DNA of 64,000 nucleotides from Escherichia coli (GTDB taxonomy: Bacteria; Pseudomonadota; Gammaproteobacteria; Enterobacterales; Enterobacteriaceae), in NCBI RefSeq assembly GCF_003018115.1, contig NZ_CP027457.1, one strand, 5' to 3'. Made by a program: the position numbers and the translations under genes. The notes below the pieces were generated by a model, which was not told the origin of the DNA, ran no database searches, and saw nothing but the letters and a program-made list of their open reading frames with translations. Positions 880 through 15,429 of the stretch are shown in pieces (position 1 is the first letter of the stretch; each line of letters begins with the position of its first letter).

Positions 880-2600
880 CATGATCAATTATGAATTGCA
901 ACTATTTCTGTAGTCACTTTTGTGGGGACAGTCCACAAAACTGCCAACTTCCGCTTCTTGCTCTTAGCGGACATTAGCATAGGCTATTTACCATAACGCC
1001 TCATTACGCGCACCGCCCAGACTGACTCAGCGCGTTTCTGGCATATCCCCGGTAAAACAAGTAACAAACCACCCGAAAATGAACACCAGAAACGCGACTT
1101 AAGAATCTACCCTATGAATGGATATGCACTCAACCGAATCGATCTTGGTTTCAATCTTTTTTATCGGGATCAGGCTTCTTTTTAGGTAACTTCGGGGGCT
1201 TAACTTGCTGATGACTTTGCGTTCGGCGCGTAAGCCAGGGATGGTCAGCTTTAGGTTTAACATAGTATTTTGAGCGTAAATCAATACGGGCATTATCCAC
1301 TCGTTCATGGACACTCTTTTCATCATCCAGTGGTATAGGCTCCGGGCCATCAACATACTTTTCCCAGCCCAGCGCTTTCCCGTCATACAGAACGTTAATT
1401 TCACCGTCAAAGTTCTCGCATACAGTAACAACCGAATGCCTAAGTCGATATCCCCGGCCCTCACTGCGTACCTGAAACGCACTGCTTTTGTACTGGAAAG
1501 TGAGATTTTTAGACAGAACGCGCTTCGCCTGTAGGCTGAAGATATAACCCAGTTCCTCTTCAGAATGGTGCACATCAAGATGAGCATTATCAGTAGTACG
1601 AGGCGACGTAGCGAACCGGTTGTTATAGGCTTCAATAAAGGTCGGCAACCATGCATTTGCTGTTTCAATATCACTGATATTCTGAAGCCGCATTTCTTTG
1701 ACCAGCCTGTCCTGTAGTGTCTGATTGGCGCGCTCTACCCGCCCTTTTGCCTGCGGGCTGTTGGCATGGATTGGCTCGATGCCCAGTGTCTTTATCGCAC
1801 GAGTGAACTGGGTCAGCTCACCTTCCCGCTCTGGGTTATTTACCCTGAATATACTGTGTCTATCAGAGTAGAGAGCGAGCGGTACGCCATGATCATTAAG
1901 GTAACCCCGGAGGGTTTCCATGTAAGCCCGGGTTGTTTCAGCAGGCACAAAACGCAACGCCATCAACGCACTGGTGGCATCATCAATGAAAACGATCAGT
2001 GTACATCTGGGGCCTCGATTTTCAAACCAGTCATGAGGTGAGCCATCAATCTGGATCAGTTCACCGTAAGATGGTCGTCGCATGCGGCGTTGATATATAC
2101 GGGCAATTTTACGACGGCGTTCACGCCATAACCCCTCTTCTATCATCCACTTTCTGAGAGTTTCAACGGATAAAGATAAACCGTGTATCTCGCGCAATTT
2201 TTCGCACGCAAACGTAGGTCCAAAATCAGCGTAACGGCCTTTGAGGAGTGAAATTACTGTTGCTCTGAATTCAGTAGAAAAGGAATTATTAGGACGCTTT
2301 CCACGTCGGTGGGAAACCAGACCAGAAGGCCCTTCATTTCTATACCGTTGCACCAGACGTTTAACCTGCCGAATAGAAATGCCAATGCGTGCCGCAGCTT
2401 GTTCCTGAATAATCTGAAGTCGGTGGAGTTCCTTATGACTCATCGTAACAGTCTCTTTGATCATGAAAAATCCCCCAGAGAATTGTCTGGGGACATTTTA
2501 GAATGGTTCAAAGGGGACATTACAGCTTGGTGTTAACAATAGCCTGCTTCTCCGTGCCTTTCGGCACGTAAGAGGCTAACCTACATGTGTCTAGCATGAA
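880..2600 (-). mobile_element. IS481-family-like insertion sequence, boundaries not resolved
   Basis: single 437-aa transposase ORF with N-terminal HTH and rve-type DDE core; interrupts prophage synteny between flxA and the replication module; ends are approximate. Confidence 0.45.
1151..2464 (-). CDS. DDE transposase, IS481-family-like
   Basis: 437 aa; HTH-like N-terminus (ARIGISIRQVKRLVQRY), integrase-core motifs (IDGSPHDWF..., LYSDRHSIF, E in RANQTLQDRL), basic C-terminal tail. Confidence 0.75.
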   Translation of the reverse strand: MIKETVTMSHKELHRLQIIQEQAAARIGISIRQVKRLVQRYRNEGPSGLVSHRRGKRPNNSFSTEFRATVISLLKGRYADFGPTFACEKLREIHGLSLSVETLRKWMIEEGLWRERRRKIARIYQRRMRRPSYGELIQIDGSPHDWFENRGPRCTLIVFIDDATSALMALRFVPAETTRAYMETLRGYLNDHGVPLALYSDRHSIFRVNNPEREGELTQFTRAIKTLGIEPIHANSPQAKGRVERANQTLQDRLVKEMRLQNISDIETANAWLPTFIEAYNNRFATSPRTTDNAHLDVHHSEEELGYIFSLQAKRVLSKNLTFQYKSSAFQVRSEGRGYRLRHSVVTVCENFDGEINVLYDGKALGWEKYVDGPEPIPLDDEKSVHERVDNARIDLRSKYYVKPKADHPWLTRRTQSHQQVKPPKLPKKKPDPDKKD

Positions 2601-2798
2601 ATTGGCCTCAGATTAATGTTAAGCGTCTTGCAGGACGCGTAATGTTAACTGGGGCTTTTCTCTATCTGCCGTTGGTGTCCATGCCCGAGGCAGATAGCCT
2701 CAAGCACCCGCAGTCATTCTACTTAACTAAGATTTCCCCGCAAACCGTTTTTGTCCAGCACAGTAAATATCCAACTAAACCAATGGAGTTCGCTGTAT

Positions 2799-2978
2799 TT
2801 ACCGCCAGTATTCAATGCACATGACCGCCATGAACACCCCTAAAAAAAGGGCATTTATATATCCAAATATTAATATCAAAACATCAACTTTTTCCATATA
2901 CCTTGCTGTGAAGATGATGGGCATACATGATGCGAACAACCAGAACGCAACAAACAAAAACTGCAATGCGTTTTTCAT
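2799..2978 (-). CDS. small hydrophobic protein (59 aa), unknown function
   Basis: ORF MKNALQFLFVAFWLFASCMPIIFTARYMEKVDVLILIFGYINALFLGVFMAVMCIEYWR with two predicted hydrophobic helices; consensus AGGAGG RBS 5 nt upstream of the ATG on the minus strand. Confidence 0.4.
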   Translation of the reverse strand: MKNALQFLFVAFWLFASCMPIIFTARYMEKVDVLILIFGYINALFLGVFMAVMCIEYWR

Positions 2979-3245
2979 TATTCCTCCTACAATCAATGTG
3001 CAATTACATTTAAACACACCTCAATTTGGCCGGACATATAAATATCTAAACCAGAAAAAATCACTTACATAGCGTTACAAACTCTTTAGTCTAAAGGTTC
3101 ATCGTAAAACATTCCCCATACTTATCAGTCCGTTCCGCGCCAGGTAGCTCATTGCCTTATCTGGCAACCTGTAATCAGGTTTCCGCTTTTTCAGTTGGCT
3201 GGTCGTTTAACCGACATAGTTAATCCATTAATCTAGTTGCCGGAT

Positions 3246-3660
3246 GTTGGTGGATTTTCGCGTTTTAGTTGTTCATAAAAGTGCACAGCTTTAACCAGTT
3301 CTTCTGATGTAACTGGGACTGGTGAGGCAGTGAATAAGGCCTGAATTTGATAGTTCGGCCTGTCGTTACAATCCTCTTTTTTCGGTACATATTTCCAGTC
3401 ACCAGACCACTACTTCCCCTGAAAGTCCGTAACGCCTTTTTTCACGTAGCGATATCGCCATGCCACTGGTTTTGCTTGCCCCGCCGTTTCATGCCCTTCC
3501 TGATAATTAATCTCGCTCATTCATCGCCCCACTCATCACAATATGCTTCGACCGGAGTTTTTCCCGCTTCATAGTCATCACGCTAGGATTCGACATCAGC
3601 AGCACTTCCACCGCGTAACTCACCATAGTCCATTAATAGTTCATCCCGCTCTTCAAAACT
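3246..3660 (-). pseudogene. degraded prophage gene remnants (short ORFs broken by stops and frame changes)
   Basis: minus-strand translation gives runs such as MSEINYQEGHETAGQAKPVAWRYRYVKKGVTDFQGK and WSGDWKYVPKKEDCNDRPNYQIQALF... in shifting frames; continues across the IS66 target site. Confidence 0.25.
3653..3660. repeat. target site duplication TCAAAACT (left copy) of the IS66-family element
   Basis: identical 8-mer immediately outside both inverted repeats. Confidence 0.8.
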
Positions 3661-3741
3661 GTAAGCGTCGTCTCAGCACCGTCTGGCAGATCCTGAAATT
3701 CCTGAGAGAATAGTGGACACCAAATATGGTGGACGCAATCC

Positions 3742-4146
3742 ATGAAATCATTAACCGCAGTGCGTAAAAAAAGCCCTAATTATCCCGTTGAGTTCAAAAT
3801 CAAAATGGTTGAACTCTCGCATCGACCAGAGATCTCCGTAGCGCAACTCGCTCGTGAGCATGGGATCAACGATAATTTGCTGTTCAAGTGGCGCCAGTAC
3901 TGGCGCGAAGGAAAACTACGTCCTCCTTCAACAACAGAAAACAACGTGCCTGAGCTGCTCCCGATAACACTTGATGCCGAAGATGTTGTCCCTACAACCT
4001 CCCCCCGGTCACAACCTGTAGCTGCTGCGACACCTGAATCACTCAATATCAGCTGTGAAGTGACGTTCCGGCACGGATCACTCCGTCTGAATGGTGCCAT
4101 CAGCGAAAATATCCTGAACCTGCTGATACGGGAGCTCAAACGTTGA
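3742..4146 (+). CDS. IS66-family TnpA (orf1)
   Basis: 134 aa, HTH-like N-terminus; first ORF of the IS66 triad. Confidence 0.8.
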   Translation: MKSLTAVRKKSPNYPVEFKIKMVELSHRPEISVAQLAREHGINDNLLFKWRQYWREGKLRPPSTTENNVPELLPITLDAEDVVPTTSPRSQPVAAATPESLNISCEVTFRHGSLRLNGAISENILNLLIRELKR

Positions 4147-4490
4147 TCCCATTACCATCAGGGACAAAGATCTGGCTGGTCGCTGGCATCACCGATATGA
4201 GAAACGGCTTCAACGGCCTGGCGGCAAAGGTGCAGACGACGCTGAAAGACGATCCGATGTCAGGTCACGTTTTTATCTTCCGTGGGCGTAATGGCAGTCA
4301 GGTAAAGCTCCTCTGGTCTACCGGCGATGGACTGTGTCTGCTGACCAAACGGCTGGAGCGCGGCCGCTTCGCCTGGCCGTCAGCCCGGGATGGCAAAGTG
4401 TTCCTCACACCGGCACAGCTGGCGATGCTGCTGGAAGGTATCGACTGGCGGCAGCCTAAAAGACTGCTTACGTCCCTGACTATGTTGTAA
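4143..4490 (+). CDS. IS66-family TnpB (orf2)
   Basis: 115 aa MIPLPSGTKIWLVAGITDMRNGFNGLAAKVQ...; overlaps the tnpA stop. Confidence 0.8.
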   Translation: MIPLPSGTKIWLVAGITDMRNGFNGLAAKVQTTLKDDPMSGHVFIFRGRNGSQVKLLWSTGDGLCLLTKRLERGRFAWPSARDGKVFLTPAQLAMLLEGIDWRQPKRLLTSLTML

Positions 4491-4538
4491 GCCTCTTTAT
4501 CCTGGTCGACGCTGAATGAGCCTGGTAATATACCCGGT

Positions 4539-6074
4539 ATGAGCAGCTCACTTCCTGACGATATCAATGCACTGAAACGTCTCCTTGCCGAACAGGAGGC
4601 GCTGAACCGTGCCCTGCAGGAAAAGCTGAACGAGCGTGAACGCGAAATAGACCATCTGCAGGCACAGCTGGATAAGCTGCGCCGGATGAACTTCGGCAGC
4701 CGCTCGGAAAAAGTCTCCCGTCGTATCGCACAGATGGAAGCTGACCTGAAGGCACTTCAGAAAGAAAGTGATACCCTTACCGGTCGGGTTGACGACCCGG
4801 CCGTGCAGCGCCCGCTGCGTCAAACCCGCACCCGCAAACCGTTCCCCGAATCACTCCCCCGCGATGAAAAACGGCTGCTGCCGGCAGCGTCATGCTGCCC
4901 GGAATGTGGAGGCTCGCTGAGCTATCTGGGTGAGGATGCCGCCGAACAGCTGGAGCTGATGCGCAGCGCCTTCCGGGTTATCCGGACTGTACGTGAAAAG
5001 CATGCCTGTACTCAGTGCGATGCCATCGTGCAGGCCCCCGCGCCTTCACGGCCCATCGAGCGGGGTATCGCAGGACCGGGGCTGCTGGCCCGCGTGCTGA
5101 TCTCAAAGTATGCAGAGCACACCCCGCTGTACCGCCAGTCTGAAATGTACGGCCGCCAGGGCGTGGAGCTGAGTCGTTCACTGCTGTCGGGCTGGGTGGA
5201 TGCATGCTGCCGGCTACTGTCACCGCTGGAAGAAGCGCTTCAGGACTATGTGCTGACTGACGGTAAGCTCCATGCTGATGACACGCCTGTCCCGGTGCTG
5301 TTGCCAGGCAATAAGAAAACGAAGACCGGGCGGTTATGGACCTACGTTCGTGACGACCGTAACGCCGGGTCAACGCTGGCGCCGGCGGTGTGGTTCGCTT
5401 ACAGCCCGGACAGAAAAGGCATCCATCCGCAGACCCATCTTGCGGGGTTCAGTGGTGTACTGCAGGCGGATGCATACGCCGGGTTCAACGAGCTGTACCG
5501 GGATGGCCGGATAACGGAAGCCGCCTGTTGGGCTCACGCCCGCCGTAAAATCCACGATGTGCACGTTCGCACCCCGTCAGCCCTGACGGAGGAAGCGCTG
5601 AAACGGATCGGCGAACTGTACGCCATCGAGGCAGAGATAAGGGGAATGACGGCGGAGCAGCGCCTTGCCGAACGTCAGTTGAAAACGAAACCGCTGCTGA
5701 AATCCCTGGAAAGCTGGCTGCGTGAAAAGATGAAAACCCTGTCGCGACACTCAGAACTGGCGAAAGCGTTCGCATACGCCCTGAACCAGTGGCCGGCGCT
5801 GACGTACTATGCAGATGATGGCTGGGCTGAGGCGGACAATAACATCGCTGAAAATGCGTTGCGGATGGTCAGTCTGGGCCGCAAAAACTACCTGTTCTTC
5901 GGTTCGGATCATGGAGGAGAGCGGGGAGCGCTGCTGTACAGCCTGATCGGGACGTGCAAACTGAACGGAGTGGAGCCAGAAAGCTACCTCCGCTATGTCC
6001 TTGACGTCATAGCCGACTGGCCGATAAACCGGGTCGGCGAACTGCTCCCCCTGGCGCGTAGCACTGCCGACTGA
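4539..6074 (+). CDS. IS66-family transposase TnpC (orf3)
   Basis: 511 aa with N-terminal coiled-coil, CxxC pairs (CCPECG, CTQCD) and DDE-type core typical of IS66 transposases. Confidence 0.85.
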
Positions 6075-6115
6075 ATAACACATCCCCGTCAATACGGTTC
6101 TTGCTGCACGCTTAC

Positions 6116-6123
6116 TCAAAACT
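6116..6123. repeat. target site duplication TCAAAACT (right copy) of the IS66-family element
   Basis: identical 8-mer immediately outside both inverted repeats. Confidence 0.8.
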
Positions 6124-6593
6124 GATGTTATATTTAGCTGAACAAAAATCAGCCACTTTGTTCTTCCTCATCGTCTTTTATTTCGTGGTATGAGTAATTG
6201 CAGTAGTTAAAGAAAATTTCTTATGCTCCGTCATGAATTTCCTCAGGTGTTGCGTCATCGTCCACTTCGAATACATCCTCAAAATCTCCACCAGCTATTC
6301 CCGTTTCAATAATAATTTTGAACTTTCGCATTTCACTACCGCCCTTTCGGGCGGCCTCCTGATGTTCTGAGGGTGCAGAAATCCATCCGGTTAAGGATTA
6401 AATTTTATTTACAGAACTGAATTTAATTATTCAGATATACGTATCTGTAGCCTTACGAATCTACTCACTGGATGCCTCTTTCATAAAAATAATCCAGTGG
6501 GTTTTATCGTTTTTTCCCTGTTCGTTGACAGATAACAGGTTTTCTGTCTGTCAGTGCCAGAATCTGGCTTACCGGTATTTGCGTTTCATTCCA

Positions 6594-6950
6594 TTAAAAA
6601 ATCAGAACGCCGTGCGGCCTCAACACCCGAAAGGCTTCTTTAAATCTCTGTCGCGAATCATCACGCCAGGCATCTTTATTCAGCCGTCCATATTTCTTTC
6701 CCATCCAGGCGTTATCACCAACACTCTCAAGATGCGGAGGGTCTAATACAACCATCGAAAAAGATGCGTCTGCAAATGATAATGCACGAAAATCTGCGAT
6801 AATGTCAGGGCTGATAATCAAGCGTCTCCCATTGCGTAATGTGTATCCTTCTTTTCTGATATCGCTGAATATCGCCCGTTCGTCAGACTTATCGAACCAG
6901 AACATGCGGCTGCCACAGCACATATCAAGAATGGTTGCCGGTGCACTCAC
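6594..6950 (-). CDS. small SAM-dependent methyltransferase-like protein (118 aa), possibly truncated or orphan
   Basis: G-loop-like motif ILDMCCGSRMF and a DPPH motif (DPPY-like amino-methyltransferase motif IV); start overlaps the stop of the upstream ORF by 4 nt. Confidence 0.4.
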   Translation of the reverse strand: MSAPATILDMCCGSRMFWFDKSDERAIFSDIRKEGYTLRNGRRLIISPDIIADFRALSFADASFSMVVLDPPHLESVGDNAWMGKKYGRLNKDAWRDDSRQRFKEAFRVLRPHGVLIF

Positions 6951-7369
6951 TGCGCCACGTCCTGAAAATTACCCTGATAGAAAGCCAGTATGCGCTGCAT
7001 AACTTCGCTCTTCCGGCACTCGCGACAGATTATGTTTAGGCGACTGTCGTAGCGACGTATTTCTCCGTCAGGTGATGACCAGATAAGGTCCGGATCAACC
7101 ACAGCAGGTTTCTTCACCTTTGCCCTCGAGAGTTTTTTGCGGGCGTTTTGCCAGTCCTTACGCGCCTGTTCAGAGGGGAATAACCCGTAGCCGGAGTTGT
7201 ATACATCGCCACTGGCTACCAGCTCTCTGGCAAGAACGCTCATCAGATATCTAGTCGCACCTGTTTTAGCTTCCAGTTGCCGTAACGTCTCACGGCCGCT
7301 CTGGCGCACGAGTTCCACCACCTGCCATTTAATTTTTTCCCGCTCTTCTTGTGTAAAAACTTTTGCCAC
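6947..7369 (-). CDS. hypothetical prophage protein (140 aa)
   Basis: ORF immediately downstream of the replication gene on the same strand; no recognisable family from sequence alone. Confidence 0.4.
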   Translation of the reverse strand: MAKVFTQEEREKIKWQVVELVRQSGRETLRQLEAKTGATRYLMSVLARELVASGDVYNSGYGLFPSEQARKDWQNARKKLSRAKVKKPAVVDPDLIWSSPDGEIRRYDSRLNIICRECRKSEVMQRILAFYQGNFQDVAQ

Positions 7370-7409
7370 AAGTCCCCCTTAAAATTACCTCATGACCTGA
7401 AATCAACAC

Positions 7410-8375
7410 TTATCCTCTGAAACCAGGCGGAATTTCTGTATCCGGTTCAGAAATATGATTAACACAACGCTGTACAGGTGAACGTCCCAGGCGGATGACC
7501 AGTTCGTCCCATTTTTCGCGGAGCTTTGACGGGCTCATGATGTTTTTTACCCAGAATGGATCTCGCTGAACCCGACCAAACATTTCGCAAATTTGTCTGT
7601 GGCTTCTGCCATCCAGCATCCGCATTGTGCGCACGTCATTGGCCCAGGCAGTCCAGTTAGGCTCTTTTGGTCGCATGATCTCGCCATCATCACTGGCTGC
7701 CTGTTCGTAGAGACCCACGATCCGCCCCCAGATCCACTGCGCACACGCCAAATCCTCCCTGCTACCCCACTGGCGTTTTTTCGCACTAAACACAACCGCG
7801 TCGGAGTTCCGGGTTAAAAAATCCTGTTCAGTCGTCTGCGGGTCCGGTTGCGAAGCTTCCGGACGAAAAGTGTTTTTATTCTCTGTAGTAATCTCTGTTG
7901 TATTCTCTGTAAGATCATCAGGCCATTTTGACCCGATGACATTGGGTCGTTTTGAACCAATGGAGCGTTTCATTTTGACCTCTTCCATCGTGTCATTTTG
8001 ACCTGATGGAGCGGCGCATTTTGAACCGATGGATTCGCTCAATTTGCCACCATCTAAAAGCTCGCTCCCATAGTTGATCGTGTAGAAATTGGTCATATCG
8101 CGCTTTGATTTATTGAGCTTTTCACAACGCAAAAGCCCCAGCGTTTTCAGACTTGCAAACGCGCGCTTTAACGTTGACTCTGACCAGAATGGGAACTGTT
8201 CCAGCCATTGTTCCGTTGTGTTATAAATCCAGCGAACACCATCACATTCCATGCCGGAGTTGGTATCTCTCAACCAGTAGTGCAGTTGTTGCAAAACAAT
8301 GGCTTCGTTTAAGCCAATTTTCATTGCCAGCTGCGTGTTTATAACCAGTGGACGTTCAGCAAAAAGAAGGCTCAT
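7410..8375 (-). CDS. phage replication initiator, lambda O-like (replisome organiser)
   Basis: N-terminal region resembles the phage O N-terminal DNA-binding domain; iterons embedded in the coding sequence (protein repeats IGSK); start uncertain: TTG at 8429, ATG at 8375 or ATG at 8324. Confidence 0.6.
   Translation of the reverse strand: MSLLFAERPLVINTQLAMKIGLNEAIVLQQLHYWLRDTNSGMECDGVRWIYNTTEQWLEQFPFWSESTLKRAFASLKTLGLLRCEKLNKSKRDMTNFYTINYGSELLDGGKLSESIGSKCAAPSGQNDTMEEVKMKRSIGSKRPNVIGSKWPDDLTENTTEITTENKNTFRPEASQPDPQTTEQDFLTRNSDAVVFSAKKRQWGSREDLACAQWIWGRIVGLYEQAASDDGEIMRPKEPNWTAWANDVRTMRMLDGRSHRQICEMFGRVQRDPFWVKNIMSPSKLREKWDELVIRLGRSPVQRCVNHISEPDTEIPPGFRG
7924..8054. repeat. iteron array (putative prophage origin of replication) inside the O-like gene
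   Basis: five to six copies of CATTTTGA(C/A)C(N)GATGG-like units at about 23-24 bp spacing (near 7924, 7949, 7971, 7994, 8017, 8041), flanked at 7861-7923 by ATTCTCTGT repeats and an AT-rich stretch. Confidence 0.6.
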
Positions 8376-8877
8376 AATTCCATCCAGCTTTTTGTTGGTA
8401 TTGCTGTCGATACGCAAGTTTGAAAGCAATTGCTTTTTCTATAAGTTCGTCAGTTTCACGATCCACTACGGCAGGATCAGCAAAAAGCAGTCCGGACTCC
8501 ACCACATCGCCATATTCTTTGTTTAACCCGGCGATCATGCACGTGATGCTTTTTCCGTCAGTAATTTCACGATACAACCTGAAATCATTAATCCGGATAG
8601 CCTCCATAATTGCAGGCACTAGCGCCGTGAACTTTTCACGCTTATCCCTGGTGTCGATAGCCTTCCAGCGTTCAAATATCTTCACTCGATTAACGCCAAG
8701 CGCTCGCTGATCAATCGCGCCACCTTCATATGTGACACGCTGAACATCGATGTTCGGGCGCTCTTTCAAAGCCCAGAATGCTTCAGTGATTAATATCGTC
8801 GCCTGCTCCTGTGTCATTCCTGGTCGACATATCCAGGCATCCAGAGCCTCACGAGCCTGTTCAGGAGTGATTTTCAT
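8356..8877 (-). CDS. hypothetical prophage early protein (173 aa)
   Basis: ORF between the cro-like dicC and the O-like gene on the same strand; ATG start. Confidence 0.45.
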   Translation of the reverse strand: MKITPEQAREALDAWICRPGMTQEQATILITEAFWALKERPNIDVQRVTYEGGAIDQRALGVNRVKIFERWKAIDTRDKREKFTALVPAIMEAIRINDFRLYREITDGKSITCMIAGLNKEYGDVVESGLLFADPAVVDRETDELIEKAIAFKLAYRQQYQQKAGWNYEPSFC

Positions 8878-9091
8878 TGTTCAACCGCCCCGCCCGCTTC
8901 GTCTTACGATATTCATCATAAACTTTGGGATCATACTGAAGCTCCCCGCCAGATGCCTCCTGTAGACGCATCGCGCGACCTTCGGGAACTAAATCCCCTT
9001 TCCAGCTATAAAGCGAAGCCAAACGAATACCTGCTGCTTGTGCAAGTTTTGTTTTTGAACCGAAATACAAAAGAGCGTCAGTTTTAAGCAT
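8861..9091 (-). CDS. dicC: DicC, Cro-like repressor of division inhibition
   Basis: 76 aa MLKTDALLYFGSKTKLAQAAGIRLASLYSWKGDL...; divergent from dicA. Confidence 0.85.
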   Translation of the reverse strand: MLKTDALLYFGSKTKLAQAAGIRLASLYSWKGDLVPEGRAMRLQEASGGELQYDPKVYDEYRKTKRAGRLNNENHS

Positions 9092-9174
9092 TTAAAACAC
9101 CTTTATTGTTAGTCATAACTAACAAGATAGATGTTAACAAAAACATAGTCAATACGATTTAGCATTAGCTAACT
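9092..9174. promoter_or_regulatory. dicA-dicC divergent promoter and operator region
   Basis: repeated TTAG(T/C)-N-CTAA-type half-site motifs (TTAGTCATAACTAACAA, TTAGCATTAGCTAACT); similar motifs recur at 9600-9670. Confidence 0.5.
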
Positions 9175-9582
9175 ATGGAAACAAAAAATTTAACTATCGG
9201 CGAACGCATCAGGTATCGTCGGAAAAACCTCAAACACACCCAAAGGTCTCTTGCTAAAGCCCTGAAAATCTCCCATGTGTCTGTATCACAATGGGAACGG
9301 GGTGATAGTGAACCTACAGGGAAGAACCTTTTTGCCCTCAGCAAAGTATTGCAATGCTCACCAACATGGATTCTATTTGGCGATGAAGACAAGCAACCAA
9401 CACCACCTGTTGAGAAGCCAGTTGCCTTATCCCCCAAAGAACTAGAGCTCCTTGAGCTGTTTAATGCACTGCCAGAATCAGAACAGGATACCCAGCTCGC
9501 CGAAATGCGAGCTCGAGTAAAAAACTTCAATAAACTCTTTGAAGAATTACTAAAAGCCCGTCAGCGGACAAATAAAAGATAA
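9175..9582 (+). CDS. dicA: DicA, cI-like HTH repressor
   Basis: 135 aa METKNLTIGERIRYRRKNLKHTQRSLAKALKISHVSVSQWERGDSEPTG... Confidence 0.9.
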   Translation: METKNLTIGERIRYRRKNLKHTQRSLAKALKISHVSVSQWERGDSEPTGKNLFALSKVLQCSPTWILFGDEDKQPTPPVEKPVALSPKELELLELFNALPESEQDTQLAEMRARVKNFNKLFEELLKARQRTNKR

Positions 9583-9748
9583 CATCATCAATGAGTTATC
9601 TTTTACCACATCAATTATGTTAGCTATAGCATACAAAATCACTTGACCGATATGTTAGTCATGGCTAATCTTGTTTGCATCAACACACCGCACGGTGTTC
9701 TCAGCAAACAGTTCCGCTACCCCAGCGTTAAGGGGAAATGAGGTCAGC

Positions 9749-9904
9749 ATGGATACTATCGATCTTGGCAACAACGAATCTCTGGTGTACGGCGTGTTTC
9801 CAAACCAGGACGGCACGTTCACCGCAATGACGTATACCAAAAGCAAAACGTTTAAAACCGAAAATGGTGCCCGTCGCTGGCTGGAAAGAAACTCAGGTGA
9901 GTGA
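9749..9904 (+). CDS. ydfA: YdfA small prophage protein
   Basis: 51 aa MDTIDLGNNESLVYGVFPNQDGTFTAMTYTKSKTFKTENGARRWLERNSGE. Confidence 0.8.
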   Translation: MDTIDLGNNESLVYGVFPNQDGTFTAMTYTKSKTFKTENGARRWLERNSGE

Positions 9905-9905
9905 T

Positions 9906-10034
9906 ATGGATTTCGACACAATCATGGAAAAGGCTTACGAAGAATACTTCGAAGGCCTTGCCGAAGGCGAAGAAGCTCTCAGCTTCAGTGAGTTTAAACA
10001 GGCGCTTTCCAGTTCGGCAAAATCTAACGGCTGA
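9906..10034 (+). CDS. ydfB: YdfB small prophage protein
   Basis: 42 aa MDFDTIMEKAYEEYFEGLAEGEEALSFSEFKQALSSSAKSNG; below the ORF-track length cutoff. Confidence 0.75.
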   Translation: MDFDTIMEKAYEEYFEGLAEGEEALSFSEFKQALSSSAKSNG

Positions 10035-10063
10035 TAAGCGAAACAGCACCGCGAGGAATCAGT

Positions 10064-10282
10064 ATGCAGAAACGAGAACCCGTCATCATCGCGCCAGACT
10101 ATACCGATGATGAACTTTATGAGTGGATGCGCCAGAAAATTAATGCAGCGCAGGATCTGAAATGGGCTAATGAAGCCAGGGCTAAGCAGGCTGAAAATCT
10201 GTCCGCTCTGGAGCAGGATATCACCAATCTGGAAAAAGCAGCGGCATTAAGCATTGCCAGAATGATTACATACCCGCGTTAG
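10064..10282 (+). CDS. ydfC: YdfC prophage protein
   Basis: 72 aa MQKREPVIIAPDYTDDELYEWMRQKINAAQDLKWANEARAKQAENL... Confidence 0.8.
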   Translation: MQKREPVIIAPDYTDDELYEWMRQKINAAQDLKWANEARAKQAENLSALEQDITNLEKAAALSIARMITYPR

Positions 10283-10622
10283 TAGCTAATCAACAAAGCT
10301 AAGGTTAGTAATTAAGGAGTTCTCCACGGGTGAGGTGGAGTGCGTGCGCCGGACACGGGTGCGCATCCGGAACTGACAGTTTACTGAAAGGATATTTCCC
10401 TGAAAAGTCAGACCATAACGCGAAAGCGCACGGCGAGGTAGCTGGTTCATAGATAGCCTGTCGTTAAATTTTCGTCGACCGTGCGCTTCCGGTTGTGGCA
10501 ACCCGCGAAATGGCGCGGCGGTAAGTATGGCGGGGTTATTCCTTCCCCGTTGAGGACACCGGGTTGTCAGGTTGACCATACGCTTAAGTGACAACCCCGC
10601 TGCAACGCCCTCTGTTATCAAT

Positions 10623-10675
10623 TTTCTGGTGACGTTTGGCGGTATCAGTTTTACTCCGTGACTGCTCTGCCGCCC
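10623..10675 (+). ncRNA. dicF: DicF small RNA (ftsZ-targeting, processed from the dicA operon transcript)
   Basis: sequence TTTCTGGTGACGTTTGGCGGTATCAGTTTTACTCCGTGACTGCTCTGCCGCCC followed by a T-run, between ydfC and dicB. Confidence 0.8.
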
Positions 10676-10849
10676 TTTTTAAAGTGAATTTTGTGATGTG
10701 GTGAATGCGGCTGAGCGCACGCGGAACAGTTAAAACCAAAAACAGTGTTATGGGTGGATTCTCTGTATCCGGCGTTAATTGTTAACTAGTTAACGTCACC
10801 TGGAGGCACCAGGCACTGCATCACAAAATTCATTGTTGAGGACGCGATA

Positions 10850-11038
10850 ATGAAAACGTTATTACCAAACGTTAATACGTCTGAAGGTTGTTTTGAAATT
10901 GGTGTCACTATCAGTAACCCAGTATTTACTGAAGATGCCATTAACAAGAGAAAACAAGAACGGGAGCTATTAAATAAAATATGCATTGTTTCAATGCTGG
11001 CTCGTTTACGTCTGATGCCAAAAGGATGTGCACAATGA
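10850..11038 (+). CDS. dicB: DicB cell-division inhibitor
   Basis: 62 aa MKTLLPNVNTSEGCFEIGVTISNPVFTEDAINKRKQERELLNKICIVSMLARLRLMPKGCAQ. Confidence 0.9.
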   Translation: MKTLLPNVNTSEGCFEIGVTISNPVFTEDAINKRKQERELLNKICIVSMLARLRLMPKGCAQ

Positions 11039-11226
11039 ATTCAGCATTTGTGCTTGTTCTGACAGTTTTTCTTGTTTCCGGAGAGCCAGTTGATATTGCA
11101 GTCAGTGTTCACAGGACAATGCAGGAGTGTATGACTGCAGCAACCGAACAGAAAATTCCCGGTAACTGTTACCCGGTCGATAAAGTTATTCACCAGGATA
11201 ATATCGAAATCCCGGCAGGTCTTTAA
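11035..11226 (+). CDS. ydfD: YdfD small membrane (lysis-type) protein
   Basis: 63 aa MNSAFVLVLTVFLVSGEPVDIAVSVHRTMQECMTAATEQKIP...; ATGA overlap with the dicB stop. Confidence 0.8.
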   Translation: MNSAFVLVLTVFLVSGEPVDIAVSVHRTMQECMTAATEQKIPGNCYPVDKVIHQDNIEIPAGL

Positions 11227-11318
11227 AACAGTTCCGTAATAAATATCCGGTTTCATTCTTATATGCCAGCAATGGCAGGGATTTGTTCATCCTTAAATCT
11301 GTCATGAGGTTAAAACAA

Positions 11319-13790
11319 ATGAGTAAAGTCTTTATTTGCGCCGCTATTCCTGACGAACTGGCAACAAGGGAAGAAGGCGCTGTGGCTGTAGCCACAGCCA
11401 TTGAAGCTGGCGACGAACGCCGTGCTCGAGCAAAATTTCACTGGCAATTCCTGGAACATTATCCGGCTGCTCAGGACTGCGCTTATAAATTTATTGTCTG
11501 CGAGGATAAACCTGGCATACCCCGCCCTGCCCTCGATTCATGGGATGCTGAATATATGCAGGAAAACCGCTGGGATGAGGAGTCTGCTTCTTTTGTCCCG
11601 GTTGAGACTGAATCCGATCCGATGAACGTCACTTTTGACAAGCTGGCCCCTGAAGTACAGAACGCTGTCATGGTTAAGTTCGACACATGTGAAAACATCA
11701 CCGTTGATATGGTTATTAGCGCACAGGAATTGTTGCAGGAAGACATGGCAACATTCGACGGACATATCGTTGAAGCGTTGATGAAAATGCCAGAAGTTAA
11801 CGCCATGTATCCGGAGCTTAAGTTGCACGCCATTGGGTGGGTTAAGCATAAATGTATTCCTGGTGCTAAATGGCCCGAAATTCAGGCAGAGATGCGCATC
11901 TGGAAAAAACGTCGCGAAGGTGAACGCAAGGAAACCGGAAAATACACGTCTGTTGTTGATCTCGCCCGCGCCAGAGCCAATCAACAGTACACTGAAAATT
12001 CAACAGGAAAAATCAGCCCGGTCATTGCTGCCATTCATCGCGAATACAAGCAGACATGGAAAACACTGGATGACGAACTGGCCTACGCTCTCTGGCCTAG
12101 TGATGTGGATGCCGGAAACATTGACGGCAGCATCCATCGCTGGGCAAAAAAAGAAGTTATCGACAACGACCGCGAAGACTGGAAGCGTATCTCGGCATCA
12201 ATGCGCAAACAGCCTGATGCCCTTCGCTACGACCGCCAAACTATTTTTGGCCTTGTCCGTGAGCGTCCGATCGACATTCACAAAGATCCCGTAGCACTGA
12301 ACAAATATATCTGCGAATACCTGACGACAAAGGGCGTGTTTGAGAATGAAGAAACAGACCTGGGCACTGTTGATGTTCTCCAGTCATCAGAAACACAAAC
12401 TGATGCAGTGGAAACTGAGGTATCTGATATCCCAAAAAATGAAACCGCGCCGGAAGCTGAACCATCTGTAGAGCGTGAGGGGCCGTTCTATTTCCTCTTC
12501 GCAGATAAGGACGGAGAAAAATACGGTCGCGCAAACAAACTCTCTGGTCTGGATAAGGCACTGGCTGCTGGCGCCACTGAAATCACAAAAGAAGAATATT
12601 TTGCCCGAAAAAATGGCACATACACGGGCTTACCGCAAAATGTAGATACCGCTGAAGATTCAGAACAACCAGAGCCGATAAAAGTTACCGCTGACGAAGT
12701 AAACAAAATTATGCAGGCAGCCAATATCAGCCAGCCTGACGCCGATAAGTTGCTTGCTGCATCACGTGGTGAATTTGTTGAAGGGATTAGTGACCCGAAT
12801 GATCCGAAATGGGTTAAGGGGCTCCAGACCCGCGATTCTGTGAACCAGAACCAGCATGAATCGGAACGGAACTACCAAAAAGCGGAACAAAACAGTCCAA
12901 ATGCGTTACAAAACGAGCCAGAAACGAAACAGCCTGAACCAGTAGCGCAACAGGAAGTGGAAAAAGTCTGCACCGCCTGCGGTCAGACCGGCGGCGGCAA
13001 CTGCCCTGATTGTGGCGCGGTGATGGGCGACGCAACATACCAAGAAACATTCGATGAAGAGTATCAGGTTGAAGTTCAGGAAGATGATCCGGAGGAAATG
13101 GAAGGCGCTGAACATCCACACAAGGAGAACACTGGCGGCAATCAGCATCACAATAGCGATAATGAAACTGGCGAGACGGCAGATCACCCAATTAAGGTGA
13201 ACGGTCATCACGAAATCACATCCACCAGCAGGACGTGTGACCATCTAATGATCGACCTTGAAACCATGGGAAAAAATCCTGATGCCCCGATCATCTCAAT
13301 AGGTGCAATATTTTTCGATCCGCAAACCGGAGATATGGGACCGGAATTTAGTAAGACTATCGATCTGGAAACTGCTGGCGGAGTCATTGATCGGGACACC
13401 ATTAAATGGTGGCTTAAGCAATCACGCGAAGCGCAATCTGCCATTATGACCGATGAAATCCCGTTAGATGATGCACTGTTACAATTGCGAGAATTTATCG
13501 ACGAAAACTCCGGTGAATTTTTTGTTCAGGTTTGGGGAAATGGAGCCAACTTCGACAACACGATTTTGCGCCGTTCATACGAACGGCAGGGGATCCCCTG
13601 CCCGTGGCGTTACTACAACGATCGCGATGTACGCACAATCGTTGAGCTGGGGAAAGCCATAGACTTCGATGCCAGAACGGCTATTCCATTCGAAGGTGAG
13701 CGCCATAATGCACTTGATGACGCCCGTTACCAGGCAAAATACGTTTCAGTTATCTGGCAAAAACTGATCCCGAGTCAGGCTGATTCTTAA
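11319..13790 (+). CDS. ydfE: YdfE-family protein with C-terminal DnaQ-like (DEDDh) 3'-5' exonuclease domain
   Basis: N-terminus MSKVFICAAIPDELATREEG... matches YdfE; acidic low-complexity linker; CxxC-x8-CxxC ribbon (CTACGQTGGGNCPDCG); C-terminal exonuclease motifs MIDLETMG, WGNGANFD, HNALDDARY. Confidence 0.8.
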   Translation: MSKVFICAAIPDELATREEGAVAVATAIEAGDERRARAKFHWQFLEHYPAAQDCAYKFIVCEDKPGIPRPALDSWDAEYMQENRWDEESASFVPVETESDPMNVTFDKLAPEVQNAVMVKFDTCENITVDMVISAQELLQEDMATFDGHIVEALMKMPEVNAMYPELKLHAIGWVKHKCIPGAKWPEIQAEMRIWKKRREGERKETGKYTSVVDLARARANQQYTENSTGKISPVIAAIHREYKQTWKTLDDELAYALWPSDVDAGNIDGSIHRWAKKEVIDNDREDWKRISASMRKQPDALRYDRQTIFGLVRERPIDIHKDPVALNKYICEYLTTKGVFENEETDLGTVDVLQSSETQTDAVETEVSDIPKNETAPEAEPSVEREGPFYFLFADKDGEKYGRANKLSGLDKALAAGATEITKEEYFARKNGTYTGLPQNVDTAEDSEQPEPIKVTADEVNKIMQAANISQPDADKLLAASRGEFVEGISDPNDPKWVKGLQTRDSVNQNQHESERNYQKAEQNSPNALQNEPETKQPEPVAQQEVEKVCTACGQTGGGNCPDCGAVMGDATYQETFDEEYQVEVQEDDPEEMEGAEHPHKENTGGNQHHNSDNETGETADHPIKVNGHHEITSTSRTCDHLMIDLETMGKNPDAPIISIGAIFFDPQTGDMGPEFSKTIDLETAGGVIDRDTIKWWLKQSREAQSAIMTDEIPLDDALLQLREFIDENSGEFFVQVWGNGANFDNTILRRSYERQGIPCPWRYYNDRDVRTIVELGKAIDFDARTAIPFEGERHNALDDARYQAKYVSVIWQKLIPSQADS

Positions 13791-13862
13791 TGTTCAACTG
13801 TCGCCGGTTGTGACTGGTATTCTGCAACCGGCGCTCGTCTGATGTAAGAGATAAAGAAATCG

Positions 13863-14114
13863 ATGAGCGAAGTAATCATGATTGTCTCTCCCGGCAAATG
13901 GGTATCCGAAGAGCAGTTAATTGCGCTGAAAGGAATAAAAAAAGGTACGTTAAAAAAGGCCCGGGAAAAATCGTTTATGGAAGGAAGGGAATATAAGCAT
14001 GTCGCTCATGACGGTATGCCATGGGATAACAGTCCATGCTTTTACAACCTGGAAGAAATTGATCGCTGGATTGAGCGCCAGGCATCAGCGAGACCAAGAC
14101 GTCATCTTACTTGA
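13863..14114 (+). CDS. excisionase-like protein
   Basis: 83-aa basic ORF directly upstream of the integrase, the typical lambdoid xis position. Confidence 0.6.
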   Translation: MSEVIMIVSPGKWVSEEQLIALKGIKKGTLKKAREKSFMEGREYKHVAHDGMPWDNSPCFYNLEEIDRWIERQASARPRRHLT

Positions 14115-14133
14115 CTAAAAGCCACACTAACTA

Positions 14134-15429
14134 ATGAGAGAAGTTGAAATGAAATATCCGACAGGCGTGGAAAACCATGGAGGGAAATTACGTATCTGGT
14201 TTGTTTATAAAGACGTAAGAGTCAGGGAAAATCTGGGGGTTCCTGACACAGCAAAAAACAGGCGCGTTGCAGGTGAACTACGCTCCTCTGTTTGTTACGC
14301 AATAAAAACTGGTGTTTTCGACTATGCAAAACAGTTTCCCTCCTCACGCAATCTGGAAAAATTTGGTGAGGCCCGACAAGATTTAACCATAAAAGAACTG
14401 GCTGAAAAATTTCTGGCACTGAAAGAAACTGAAGTCGCCAAAACATCACTCAACACATACCGTGCCGTCATCAAAAATATCCTGAGCATAATCGGTGAAA
14501 AAAATCTTGCCTCATCGATTAATAAAGAAAAATTACTGGAGGTTCGTAAAGAGTTACTGACTGGATACCAGATCCCCAAAAGTAACTATATTGTTACACA
14601 ACCAGGGAGATCGGCTGTAACTGTAAATAATTACATGACAAATCTTAACGCCGTGTTCCAGTTTGGTGTTGATAACGGTTACCTGGCAGATAATCCGTTT
14701 AAGGGGATCTCGCCATTAAAGGAATCAAGAACCATTCCGGATCCTCTTTCGCGGGAAGAATTTATCCGTCTTATCGATGCGTGCAGAAATCAGCAAGCAA
14801 AAAATTTATGGTGTGTTTCTGTTTATACTGGAGTTCGCCCTGGTGAGCTGTGTGCACTTGGATGGGAGGACATAGATCTGAAAAATGGAACAATGATGAT
14901 CAGGAGAAATTTAGCAAAAGACCGTTTCACGGTACCAAAAACACAGGCGGGAACCAATCGGGTCATTCATCTTATTAAGCCAGCAATCGACGCTCTCCGG
15001 AGTCAGATGACATTAACGAGACTGAGCAAAGAGCATATCATTGATGTTCACCTCAGAGAGTATGGCAGAACAGAAAAACAAAAATGCACCTTTGTTTTTC
15101 AACCTGAAGTGTCAGCGAGAGTAAAAAATTATGGTGACCATTTTACCGTTGACTCAATAAGGCAGATGTGGGACGCAGCGATAAAACGTGCCGGACTCCG
15201 CCATCGAAAATCATATCAGTCGAGACATACTTATGCCTGCTGGTCGCTGACAGCTGGTGCTAACCCGGCATTTATAGCAAACCAGATGGGCCATGCAGAT
15301 GCGCAAATGGTATTTCAGGTATACGGAAAATGGATGTCTGAAAACAATAATGCACAGGTAGCTTTGTTAAATACACAGTTAAGCGAGTTTGCCCCAACCA
15401 TGCCCCATAACGAAGCAATGAAAAATTAA
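14134..15429 (+). CDS. intQ: tyrosine recombinase, phage integrase (IntQ-like, full length)
   Basis: 431 aa with C-terminal catalytic motifs (HxxR in SRHTYACW, Y in VFQVYGKW); last gene before core rspB. Confidence 0.85.
   Translation: MREVEMKYPTGVENHGGKLRIWFVYKDVRVRENLGVPDTAKNRRVAGELRSSVCYAIKTGVFDYAKQFPSSRNLEKFGEARQDLTIKELAEKFLALKETEVAKTSLNTYRAVIKNILSIIGEKNLASSINKEKLLEVRKELLTGYQIPKSNYIVTQPGRSAVTVNNYMTNLNAVFQFGVDNGYLADNPFKGISPLKESRTIPDPLSREEFIRLIDACRNQQAKNLWCVSVYTGVRPGELCALGWEDIDLKNGTMMIRRNLAKDRFTVPKTQAGTNRVIHLIKPAIDALRSQMTLTRLSKEHIIDVHLREYGRTEKQKCTFVFQPEVSARVKNYGDHFTVDSIRQMWDAAIKRAGLRHRKSYQSRHTYACWSLTAGANPAFIANQMGHADAQMVFQVYGKWMSENNNAQVALLNTQLSEFAPTMPHNEAMKN

What the first reader, a model, noticed from the sequence alone, without database searches (positions are those of the whole stretch)
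8861..11226. Complete DicC/DicA switch with dicF sRNA, dicB and an overlapping ydfD
The whole division-inhibition cassette is present and apparently intact: divergent dicC and dicA with repeated operator-like motifs between them, ydfA-ydfB-ydfC, the 53-nt DicF sequence with a terminator T-run, DicB, and ydfD overlapping the dicB stop by ATGA. De-repression would be expected to block cell division, so the region is a conditional toxic locus kept silent by DicA.
Basis: established knowledge. Interest (0 to 1): 0.35.

Follow-up and report, generated by a model that had tools for sequence, protein, structure and literature searches.

The report
Known Qin prophage dicA/dicC–dicBF locus
This stretch is the well-studied cell-division-inhibition cassette of the E. 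coli Qin prophage, essentially identical to the laboratory strain K-12 copy, so it is real and intact but already known.

Summary
Window 8861-11226 matches E. coli K-12 MG1655 dicC..ydfD at 2363 of 2366 bases. DicC, DicA, YdfA, YdfB, YdfC, DicB, YdfD and the 53-nt DicF are all identical to K-12. The three differences are one synonymous change in dicA and two intergenic changes. Rfam calls DicF at 76.7 bits (gathering score 48). The published DicA operator Oc is present exactly at 9106-9125. The dicB/ydfD ATGA overlap and the DicF T-run are present. Many complete E. coli genomes carry the segment at 100% identity.

One correction: only one strong operator lies between dicC and dicA. The other two good matches flank the dicB promoter, downstream of dicA.

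The prophage here is less decayed than K-12 Qin. It keeps a full YdaT/CII-like gene, an intact exonuclease, xis and int.

Side observation: a 117-nt structured RNA domain (10491-10607) sits just upstream of the DicF seed. It is conserved in many lambdoid and P1-like phages, about half of which lack the DicF seed. Its function is unknown.

Novelty: already known. Interest: low.

The parts
8861..9091 (-). dicC, Cro-like regulator (76 aa)
   Evidence: ORF; identical to K-12 DicC; Pfam P22_Cro 44.1 bits; annotated dicC in identical RefSeq genomes.
9106..9125 (.). Operator Oc, the DicA binding site; perfect 20-bp palindrome TTGTTAGTCATAACTAACAA
   Evidence: Exact match to the Oc sequence cloned and tested for DicA binding in PMC3441716. 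It is the only zero-mismatch hit of TGTTAG-N6-CTAACA in the window. It overlaps a promoter-like site on the minus strand (TTGACT-17-TATCTT, 9152..9124) that would drive dicC.
9175..9582 (+). dicA, CI/C2-like repressor (135 aa) without a self-cleavage domain
   Evidence: Identical protein to K-12 DicA, with one synonymous difference at 9342. Pfam HTH_3 60.8 bits and Phage_CI_repr; no peptidase S24 domain reported. The translated sequence has no Ala-Gly dipeptide.
9618..9671 (+). dicB operon promoter region. Two operator-like sites (9618-9635, 9653-9670). Inferred -35 TTGACC at 9643-9648 and -10 TAATCT at 9666-9671. Inferred transcription start near 9678.
   Evidence: Operator matches with 2 mismatches each and their alignment; sequence read. 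The promoter hexamers are my reading of the sequence. A start near 9678 fits the published RNase III cut 'between positions 813 and 814' giving a 190-nt DicF species that ends at 10680, and fits a 1,608-nt ydfABC-dicFB-ydfD transcript that ends near 11285 (PMC10448788). This is inference, because the paper's numbering origin was not stated in the text I read.
9749..9904 (+). ydfA (51 aa, DUF1391)
   Evidence: Identical to K-12; Pfam DUF1391 98.5 bits.
9906..10034 (+). ydfB (42 aa)
   Evidence: Identical to K-12; annotated ydfB in RefSeq genomes.
10064..10282 (+). ydfC (72 aa)
   Evidence: Identical to K-12; annotated ydfC.
10413..10498 (+). Long predicted hairpin (23 pairs) in the ydfC-dicF spacer; likely RNase III substrate
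   Evidence: Folds. The inferred RNase III cut (about 10490/10491) lies in its 3' arm. The difference from K-12 at 10431 turns a U-G pair into C-G, so the helix is kept. Assignment as the RNase III site is inference from PMC10448788.
10491..10607 (+). Conserved 117-nt structured RNA domain, the 5' part of the 190-nt DicF precursor species; function unknown
   Evidence: Covariance model R1 scores it at 138.4 bits, the only copy in the window. Across 60 distinct sequences, 96.9% of cells form a standard pair against 34-59% for slid controls, and 6 pairs change on both sides. 42 variants of the variable hairpin keep the stem. No Rfam family matches it.
10623..10680 (+). DicF sRNA (53 nt, 10623-10675) plus its terminator T-run (10676-10680)
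   Evidence: Rfam RF00039 76.7 bits, gathering score 48. Identical to K-12 dicF b1574. Hairpin of -15.9 kcal/mol followed by UUUUU. Nucleotides 24-53 are complementary to K-12 ftsZ -29..+1, including the Shine-Dalgarno sequence: -27.9 kcal/mol, with 6 of 300 shuffles as good.
10850..11038 (+). dicB (62 aa), MinC-dependent division inhibitor
   Evidence: Identical to K-12 DicB; Pfam DicB 136.8 bits over the full length; GAGGA ribosome-binding site 6 nt upstream of the start.
11035..11226 (+). ydfD (63 aa), lysis protein; its start overlaps the dicB stop as ATGA
   Evidence: ATGA at 11035-11038; identical to K-12 YdfD; Pfam DUF1482 91.1 bits; annotated 'lysis protein YdfD'.
11264..11287 (+). Weak terminator-like hairpin after ydfD
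   Evidence: Consensus scan hit TGCCAGCAATGGCA followed by GGGATTTGTT. It coincides with the end expected for the published 1,608-nt transcript if the start is at about 9678 (inference).

Best explanation
This is the immunity region and early-left (PL-type) operon of a Qin-type lambdoid prophage of E. coli.

Switch. DicA is a short CI/C2-like helix-turn-helix repressor without a RecA-cleavable linker. It binds the palindromic operator Oc between dicC and dicA, which shuts off the Cro-like dicC and supports dicA's own transcription. DicA also represses the dicB promoter just downstream of dicA, where two further operator-like sites overlap the -35/-10 region.

Induction. DicA can be removed or inactivated by the antirepressor Rem (encoded elsewhere on the prophage), by heat or urea, or by rare spontaneous switching that DicC reinforces. 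One transcript then runs through ydfA-ydfB-ydfC-dicF-dicB-ydfD.

Products. RNase III cuts a long hairpin in the ydfC-dicF spacer and yields a 190-nt RNA. RNase E trims that RNA to the 53-nt DicF, whose 3' end is an intrinsic terminator. DicF pairs with the ftsZ ribosome-binding region and with other mRNAs. DicB brings MinC to the division site and also blocks ManYZ-dependent phage DNA entry. YdfD causes lysis.

Basis. Shown here: the presence, order and sequence identity of all parts. Taken from published work on the identical K-12 sequence: regulation, processing and phenotypes. Inferred by me: the exact promoter hexamers, the transcription start and the RNase III hairpin.
For: - 2363/2366 identity to K-12, with all products identical.
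- 100% identical copies in dozens of complete E. coli genomes, annotated dicC, dicA, ydfA-C, dicB and ydfD. At least 80% of the segment is present in 762 of 5426 genomes.
- Rfam DicF 76.7 bits.
- Pfam families for DicC, DicA, YdfA, DicB and YdfD.
- Exact Oc operator, and clustering of operator matches around dicA.
- DicF terminator hairpin and complementarity to the ftsZ ribosome-binding region.
- A long hairpin at the place where the published RNase III cut falls.
- Experimental literature on the same sequence: PMC10448788, PMC3441716, PMC5069750.
Against: Nothing in the sequence argues against it. Limits:
- No expression or phenotype can be tested here.
- rem and the host targets (ftsZ, minC, manXYZ) lie outside the window, so their state in this strain is unknown.
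- The consensus promoter scan did not call the dicB promoter, because its -10 matches only 3 of 6 positions.
- The published 1,146-nt ydfABC-dicF transcript length does not fit my inferred start plus the DicF terminator, which gives about 1,003 nt. My start site, or my reading of the paper's numbers, may therefore be off.
Confidence: 0.95

Rival explanations
1. The cassette is a decayed, non-functional remnant that only looks intact.
For: It sits in a prophage with clear decay upstream: an IS66-family element, an ISNCY transposase remnant, and pseudogenes between the replication genes and ydfW.
Against: All seven ORFs and DicF are identical to the K-12 copies, which have been shown to be active. 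The three nucleotide differences are a synonymous change, a helix-preserving change and an intergenic change. The segment is 100% conserved across many genomes.
Confidence: 0.02
2. In this strain the operon is not only a silent toxic cassette. It is the working early-left operon of a prophage that can still excise. Derepression would then also express the intact exonuclease, Xis and Int downstream, so that the division block is coupled to excision.
For: K-12 has IS2E with ydfE' and intQ' pseudogenes at this position. The window instead has an intact 823-aa exonuclease (11319-13790), an excisionase (13863-14114) and an integrase (14149-15429) on the same strand directly after ydfD. The same arrangement at 99.9% identity is deposited as a complete phage genome, PhiR42_1. 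The ydfA-ydfD operon occurs at 96-98% identity in several phage records.
Against: In K-12 no transcript longer than ydfABC-dicFB-ydfD was detected (PMC10448788), and a terminator-like hairpin follows ydfD. The rightward operon is interrupted by insertion sequences, so lytic growth is unlikely. The other prophage end and its attachment site are outside the window.
Confidence: 0.3
3. The cassette is retained mainly as an anti-phage (superinfection exclusion) module rather than as a division regulator. DicB would block ManYZ-dependent DNA entry of incoming phages, and DicF would repress manX.
For: Published for the identical K-12 DicB (PMC6832061, listed; summarised in PMC10448788). The locus is kept intact in hundreds of genomes despite its toxicity (PMC5069750).
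Against: This does not exclude the division-inhibition mechanism. Both activities belong to the same proteins, and nothing in the window discriminates between them. The PADLOC defence library was not searched.
Confidence: 0.25

Closest known systems
Qin (Kim) cryptic prophage dicAC-dicBF locus of E. coli K-12 MG1655 (b1569-b1576)
   Same: Gene order, all protein sequences, DicF, the Oc operator and the dicB promoter region are the same: 2363/2366 nucleotides identical.
   Different: There are three silent or intergenic substitutions. The flanks differ. Here dicC is followed by a full 173-aa YdaT/CII-like gene, of which K-12 ydfX is only the N-terminal remnant, plus 7.26 kb that K-12 lacks (window 1336-8597). 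Here ydfD is followed by an intact exonuclease, xis and int, whereas K-12 has IS2E with ydfE' and intQ'.
Lambda/P22 immunity region (cI/c2, cro, OR/OL operators, PL operon with kil)
   Same: Divergent repressor and Cro-like genes. Palindromic operators lie at both the divergent promoters and the leftward promoter. The early-left operon carries a host division inhibitor and ends with exo-xis-int. The switch is bistable (PMC10448788; Pfam P22_Cro, HTH_3 and Phage_CI_repr).
   Different: DicA is short (135 aa), has no S24 peptidase domain and no Ala-Gly site. It is therefore controlled by an antirepressor (Rem), like the Gifsy repressors, and not by RecA. There is no N gene or recognisable nut site at the start of the operon. 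Only Oc has been shown to bind DicA.
P1 'dicF-like region' in the ban operon leader (NC_005856 68791-68892), and the related stretch in Stx2c and cdtI phages
   Same: They share the 117-nt structured domain found at window 10491-10607, followed by an intrinsic terminator-like hairpin.
   Different: They lack the DicF single-stranded seed (TTTCTGGTGA), and dicB and ydfD are not found downstream. In P1 the outer helix differs and the model scores are lower (64-90 bits for P1-like copies against about 138 bits in the window).

Membership tests
Qin-type dicAC immunity switch | Divergently transcribed HTH repressor (DicA) and Cro-like regulator (DicC) | tested here: met
   ORFs at 9175-9582 (+) and 8861-9091 (-), 83 bp apart. 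Pfam HTH_3 and Phage_CI_repr for DicA, P22_Cro for DicC. Both identical to K-12.
Qin-type dicAC immunity switch | DicA operator Oc (TTGTTAGTCATAACTAACAA) in the dicC-dicA intergenic region | tested here: met
   Exact match at 9106-9125. The sequence is the one used in the DicA binding assay of PMC3441716.
Qin-type dicAC immunity switch | Repressor lacks the RecA-dependent self-cleavage module and is antirepressor-controlled | tested here: met
   No Peptidase_S24 hit and no Ala-Gly dipeptide in the 135-aa sequence. The antirepressor gene rem is not in the window, so its presence in this strain was not tested.
Qin-type dicAC immunity switch | DicA actually represses the dicB promoter, and DicC reinforces the on state | not testable with these tools
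   Known for the identical K-12 sequence (PMC10448788).
DicF RNA (Rfam RF00039) | Match to the covariance model above the gathering score | tested here: met
   76.7 bits against 48, full model length 1-52, at 10624-10675.
DicF RNA (Rfam RF00039) | 3' end formed by an intrinsic terminator (hairpin plus U-run) | tested here: met
   Hairpin of -15.9 kcal/mol followed by UUUUU at 10676-10680.
DicF RNA (Rfam RF00039) | Antisense complementarity to the ftsZ translation initiation region | tested here: met
   DicF nucleotides 24-53 against K-12 ftsZ -29..+1, covering GGAGAG: -27.9 kcal/mol, with 6 of 300 shuffles as good. This strain's own ftsZ is outside the window.
DicF RNA (Rfam RF00039) | Lies inside the dicB operon, downstream of ydfC and upstream of dicB, and is processed from the operon transcript | tested here: met
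   The position is met. A predicted 23-pair hairpin lies at the inferred RNase III site. Processing itself cannot be tested here.
DicB (Pfam PF05358) | Full-length match to the DicB family | tested here: met
   136.8 bits, residues 1-62 on profile positions 1-62; identical to K-12 DicB.
DicB (Pfam PF05358) | MinC- and ZipA-dependent inhibition of FtsZ ring assembly | not testable with these tools
   Established for the identical K-12 protein (summarised in PMC10448788).
YdfD lysis protein (Pfam DUF1482, PF07358) | Family match, and translational overlap with dicB | tested here: met
   91.1 bits; ATGA overlap at 11035-11038; identical to K-12 YdfD.
HK022 put antiterminator RNA (considered for the 117-nt domain at 10491-10607) | Sequence and structure similarity to putL/putR of HK022 | tested here: not met
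   Neither an nhmmer profile nor covariance model R1 finds any match in the HK022 genome. put RNAs are about 70 nt with two stems (PMC9378689), whereas this domain has six helices over 117 nt.

The most novel reading that the evidence does not exclude
The 117-nt structured domain at 10491-10607 would be a functional module in its own right, and DicF only one allele of a family of phage RNAs built as 'conserved domain, exchangeable single-stranded linker, intrinsic terminator'. The domain could act as a processing or stability scaffold that launches sRNAs with different seeds. Alternatively it could control read-through of the terminator into the downstream early genes (dicB-ydfD-exo-xis-int here, ban in P1).
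Probability: 0.3. Interest if true: 0.5.

Novelty: already known. Interest (0 to 1): 0.12.

Why it matters
The main finding adds nothing new biologically. It shows only that this genome carries an intact, K-12-identical dicAC-dicBF locus, as hundreds of E. coli genomes do.

It is useful for annotation. RefSeq records with the identical sequence do not annotate dicF.

It is also useful for strain handling. Cloning the Oc region at high copy, or inactivating dicA, should be toxic in this strain.

Two by-products may be of some use:
1. This prophage version shows what K-12 Qin has lost: a full YdaT/CII-like gene, the replication module, the exonuclease, xis and int.
2. The conserved structured domain upstream of DicF is widespread, shows covariation support, and is absent from Rfam.

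Tried and rejected
1. Rfam at a permissive E-value over 9583-11330, to find a family for the ydfC-dicF spacer. Only DicF came up, plus a sub-threshold STnc100 match in the dicF-dicB spacer.

2. The idea that the conserved upstream domain is an HK022-type put antiterminator. There is no match in HK022 by nhmmer or by covariance model.

3. The idea that the non-DicF variants in Stx phages are the GcvB sponge AgvB. Rejected, because AgvB lies between the late promoter and the lysis genes (PMC7873438).

4. Unrestricted RNAduplex of DicF against 200 nt around the ftsZ start. It gave a long pairing inside the coding region that was not better than shuffles (24 of 300). I restricted the target to -50..+25 instead.

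5. A second collection scan with CAGGTTGACCATNCGC. It returned mostly chance matches in unrelated contigs and only a few new true copies.

6. Faubladier and Bouche 1994 (PMC205167), the original description of dicF-like prophage sequences, is not held in the library. A search for 'dicF' with 'ban operon' found nothing.

The consensus promoter scan missed the dicB promoter.
Full report
**1. Is it there?**

- A 76-aa ORF lies on the minus strand at 8861-9091.
- A divergent 135-aa ORF lies at 9175-9582.
- Three small ORFs follow at 9749-9904, 9906-10034 and 10064-10282.
- A 567-bp non-coding stretch comes next.
- It is followed by a 62-aa ORF (10850-11038) and a 63-aa ORF (11035-11226).
- The 63-aa ORF's ATG overlaps the preceding TGA as ATGA.

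A scan of the whole window against Rfam finds DicF at 10624-10675. The score is 76.7 bits against a gathering score of 48, and the full model is matched.

**2. How close is it to the known locus?**

I fetched the K-12 MG1655 Qin region and compared it base by base. Window 8861-11226 and K-12 1647620-1649985 have the same length and differ at 3 of 2366 positions.
- 9342 is synonymous in dicA.
- 10431 lies in the ydfC-dicF spacer.
- 10788 lies in the dicF-dicB spacer.

DicC, DicA, YdfA, YdfB, YdfC, DicB, YdfD and the 53-nt DicF are identical. A megablast against 5,426 complete E. coli genomes finds the 2.4-kb segment at 100% identity in every one of the 30 records listed. At least 80% of the segment is present in 762 genomes, and partial matches occur in 4,749. 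The genes are annotated dicC, dicA, ydfA, ydfB, ydfC, dicB and ydfD in those records. Those RefSeq records do not annotate dicF. Pfam agrees with the assignments: P22_Cro, HTH_3/Phage_CI_repr, DUF1391, DicB and DUF1482.

**3. Regulatory sites.**

The 20-bp palindrome TTGTTAGTCATAACTAACAA at 9106-9125 is exactly the Oc operator that Yun et al. cloned and showed to be needed for DicA binding in vivo (PMC3441716). The same paper reports that the two other sequence-predicted operators in that intergenic region did not bind DicA.

In the window, the 18-mer TGTTAG-N6-CTAACA has four matches with at most 2 mismatches. Three of them lie within 564 bp around dicA: 9107, 9618 and 9653. With 3 mismatches allowed the count is at chance level, so the candidate at 9157 is weak.

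The site at 9653-9670 lies between a TTGACC (9643-9648) and a TAATCT (9666-9671) that are spaced 17 bp apart. I read these as the -35 and -10 of the dicB promoter. A start near 9678 agrees with two published numbers (PMC10448788). [quoted passage not shown] The second is a 1,608-nt ydfABC-dicFB-ydfD transcript, which would end near 11285, where a weak terminator-like hairpin lies. The published 1,146-nt figure does not fit this arithmetic, so the start site remains an inference.

On the minus strand, a promoter-like site (9152..9124) overlaps Oc. This fits DicA repression of dicC.

**4. The RNA part.**

DicF folds into a hairpin of -15.9 kcal/mol followed by UUUUU. Its nucleotides 24-53 are complementary to K-12 ftsZ from -29 to +1, including the Shine-Dalgarno sequence (-27.9 kcal/mol; 6 of 300 shuffles as good).

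The ydfC-dicF spacer is strongly structured. A 23-pair hairpin at 10413-10498 contains the inferred RNase III cut in its 3' arm. The single difference from K-12 in that hairpin changes U-G to C-G.

**5. Mechanism.**

The sequence is the K-12 sequence, so the published experiments apply.
- DicA represses the dicB promoter, which rises 22-fold on dicA deletion.
- Rem, a Qin-encoded antirepressor, derepresses it 165-fold and causes filamentation that requires dicB or dicF.
- About 1% of cells switch on spontaneously in a dicC-dependent way.
- DicB acts through MinC and also blocks ManYZ-dependent phage entry. DicF also represses xylR, pykA and manX. YdfD is a lysis protein.

**6. Context.**

Relative to K-12, the window carries 7.26 kb (1336-8597) that K-12 lacks between ydfW and ydfX. 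It also carries an intact 2.2-kb stretch where K-12 has IS2E.
- K-12 ydfX is the N-terminal remnant of the 173-aa YdaT-family (CII-like) ORF at 8356-8877.
- Downstream of ydfD lie an intact 823-aa protein with a C-terminal Rv2179c-like exonuclease domain, an excisionase and an integrase.
- The rightward operon is nevertheless broken by an IS66-family element and an ISNCY remnant.
- The first 15 kb of the window are identical to strain Ecol_AZ155.
- The same module is deposited as phage PhiR42_1 at 99.9% identity. The ydfA-ydfD operon, from about window 9711 on, occurs at 96-98% identity in several other phage records that have different immunity modules.
- A 2016 survey had found no DicB or DicF in about 2,000 phage genomes (PMC5069750). 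That statement is now outdated.

**7. Side study.**

Blast against phage records showed that window 10492-10614 is conserved in phages that lack the DicF seed. This stretch lies just upstream of mature DicF and inside the 190-nt species. It is conserved at about 89% in Stx2c phages and phage cdtI, and at about 78% in the P1 ban leader, which the P1 record annotates as 'dicF-like region'.

- Two pattern scans of viral contigs gave more than 140 copies.
- A covariance model built from 19 diverse copies finds one copy in the window (10491-10607, 138.4 bits). It finds a copy in all 98 pattern-selected loci searched, and none in HK022.
- On 60 distinct sequences, 96.9% of cells form a standard pair, against 34-59% when partners are slid. 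Six pairs change on both sides (24 cells; 0 of 500 shuffles reach this). One pair of the variable hairpin shows GC, UA, AU and CG.
- 42 variants of that hairpin keep the stem.
- In 119 of 124 unique versions, a hairpin plus T-run follows within about 60-100 nt.
- The linker between the domain and the terminator falls into 14 classes. About half of the copies carry the DicF seed.
- dicB and ydfD follow in the DicF-seed classes and in four non-DicF classes. They do not follow in the Stx2c class or the P1 class.

The alignment is biased by the search patterns, the sequences are closely related, and the alignment was fitted to the model. The covariation evidence is therefore moderate rather than strong. 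That dicF-like sequences are conserved has been known since 1994, and I could not read that paper. A function for this 5' domain is, to my knowledge, not described, and Rfam has no family for it.

**8. Verdict.**

The finding is real, correctly located and correctly interpreted. It is already known, and the sequence is the textbook one. Interest is low.

Noticed in passing
window 10491-10607 (+): A 117-nt, six-helix RNA domain lies immediately upstream of the DicF seed, inside the published 190-nt RNase III species. It is conserved in more than 140 viral contigs and phage records, including Stx2c phages, phage cdtI and P1-like phages. About half of these lack the DicF seed and many lack dicB. 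It is almost always followed by an intrinsic terminator. It is not in Rfam and is not similar to HK022 put RNA.
   Followed up: partly
window 2538-2709 (-): Rfam 'sok' match (104.1 bits, gathering score 59), which corresponds to a hok/sok-type leader. It is not annotated in the identical RefSeq genomes. The match stops where the toxin ORF should begin, about 70 nt before the start codon (2464) of an ISNCY-family transposase ORF (1151-2464, minus strand). It looks like a hok locus truncated by the insertion.
   Followed up: partly
window 1336-8597: A 7.26-kb segment that K-12 Qin lacks. It holds an ISNCY transposase remnant, the hok/sok leader, an IS66-family element (tnpA 3742-4146, tnpB, and a frameshifted ISEc22 transposase to about 6078), a DUF7167 pseudogene, a SAM methyltransferase (6594-6950), DUF977 (6947-7369), a 321-aa protein that one phage record calls replication protein O (7410-8375), and most of a YdaT-family gene. 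K-12 ydfX is the N-terminal remnant of that YdaT-family ORF (8356-8877).
   Followed up: partly
window 11319-15429 (+): An intact 823-aa protein with a C-terminal Rv2179c-like 3'-5' exoribonuclease domain (residues 642-813, 226.5 bits), an excisionase (13863-14114) and an integrase (14149-15429), next to rspB. In K-12 this region is disrupted by IS2E (ydfE' and intQ' pseudogenes). This prophage copy may therefore still be able to excise.
   Followed up: partly
window 10673-10882 (+): A sub-threshold Rfam match to STnc100 (33.7 bits, gathering score 47, E = 3.6e-5) covers the dicF-dicB spacer. A similar sub-threshold STnc100 match occurs in P1, about 1.2 kb downstream of its dicF-like region (L006 2842-2961).
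   Followed up: no
window 10286-10621 (-): A 111-aa minus-strand ORF lies antisense to the structured ydfC-dicF spacer. Phage record PV340562 annotates hypothetical proteins on this strand in the spacer. Single-base insertions and deletions are frequent among homologues of this stretch, which argues that it is not coding.
   Followed up: partly
window ~9711; phage records OV696610, ON470583, ON470580 and CP025907: In several phage genomes, similarity to the window starts at about 9711, roughly 33 nt downstream of the inferred dicB-operon start site, and continues through ydfD (to query position 2101 in CP025907). These phages carry different repressor modules upstream. This marks a mosaic junction between the immunity module and the early-left operon.
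   Followed up: no
RefSeq records NZ_CP025707 and NZ_CP019005 (L001, L003), at the position matching window 10623-10675: The PGAP annotations of genomes with a 100% identical segment list no dicF ncRNA feature between ydfC and dicB, although Rfam calls it well above threshold.
   Followed up: no
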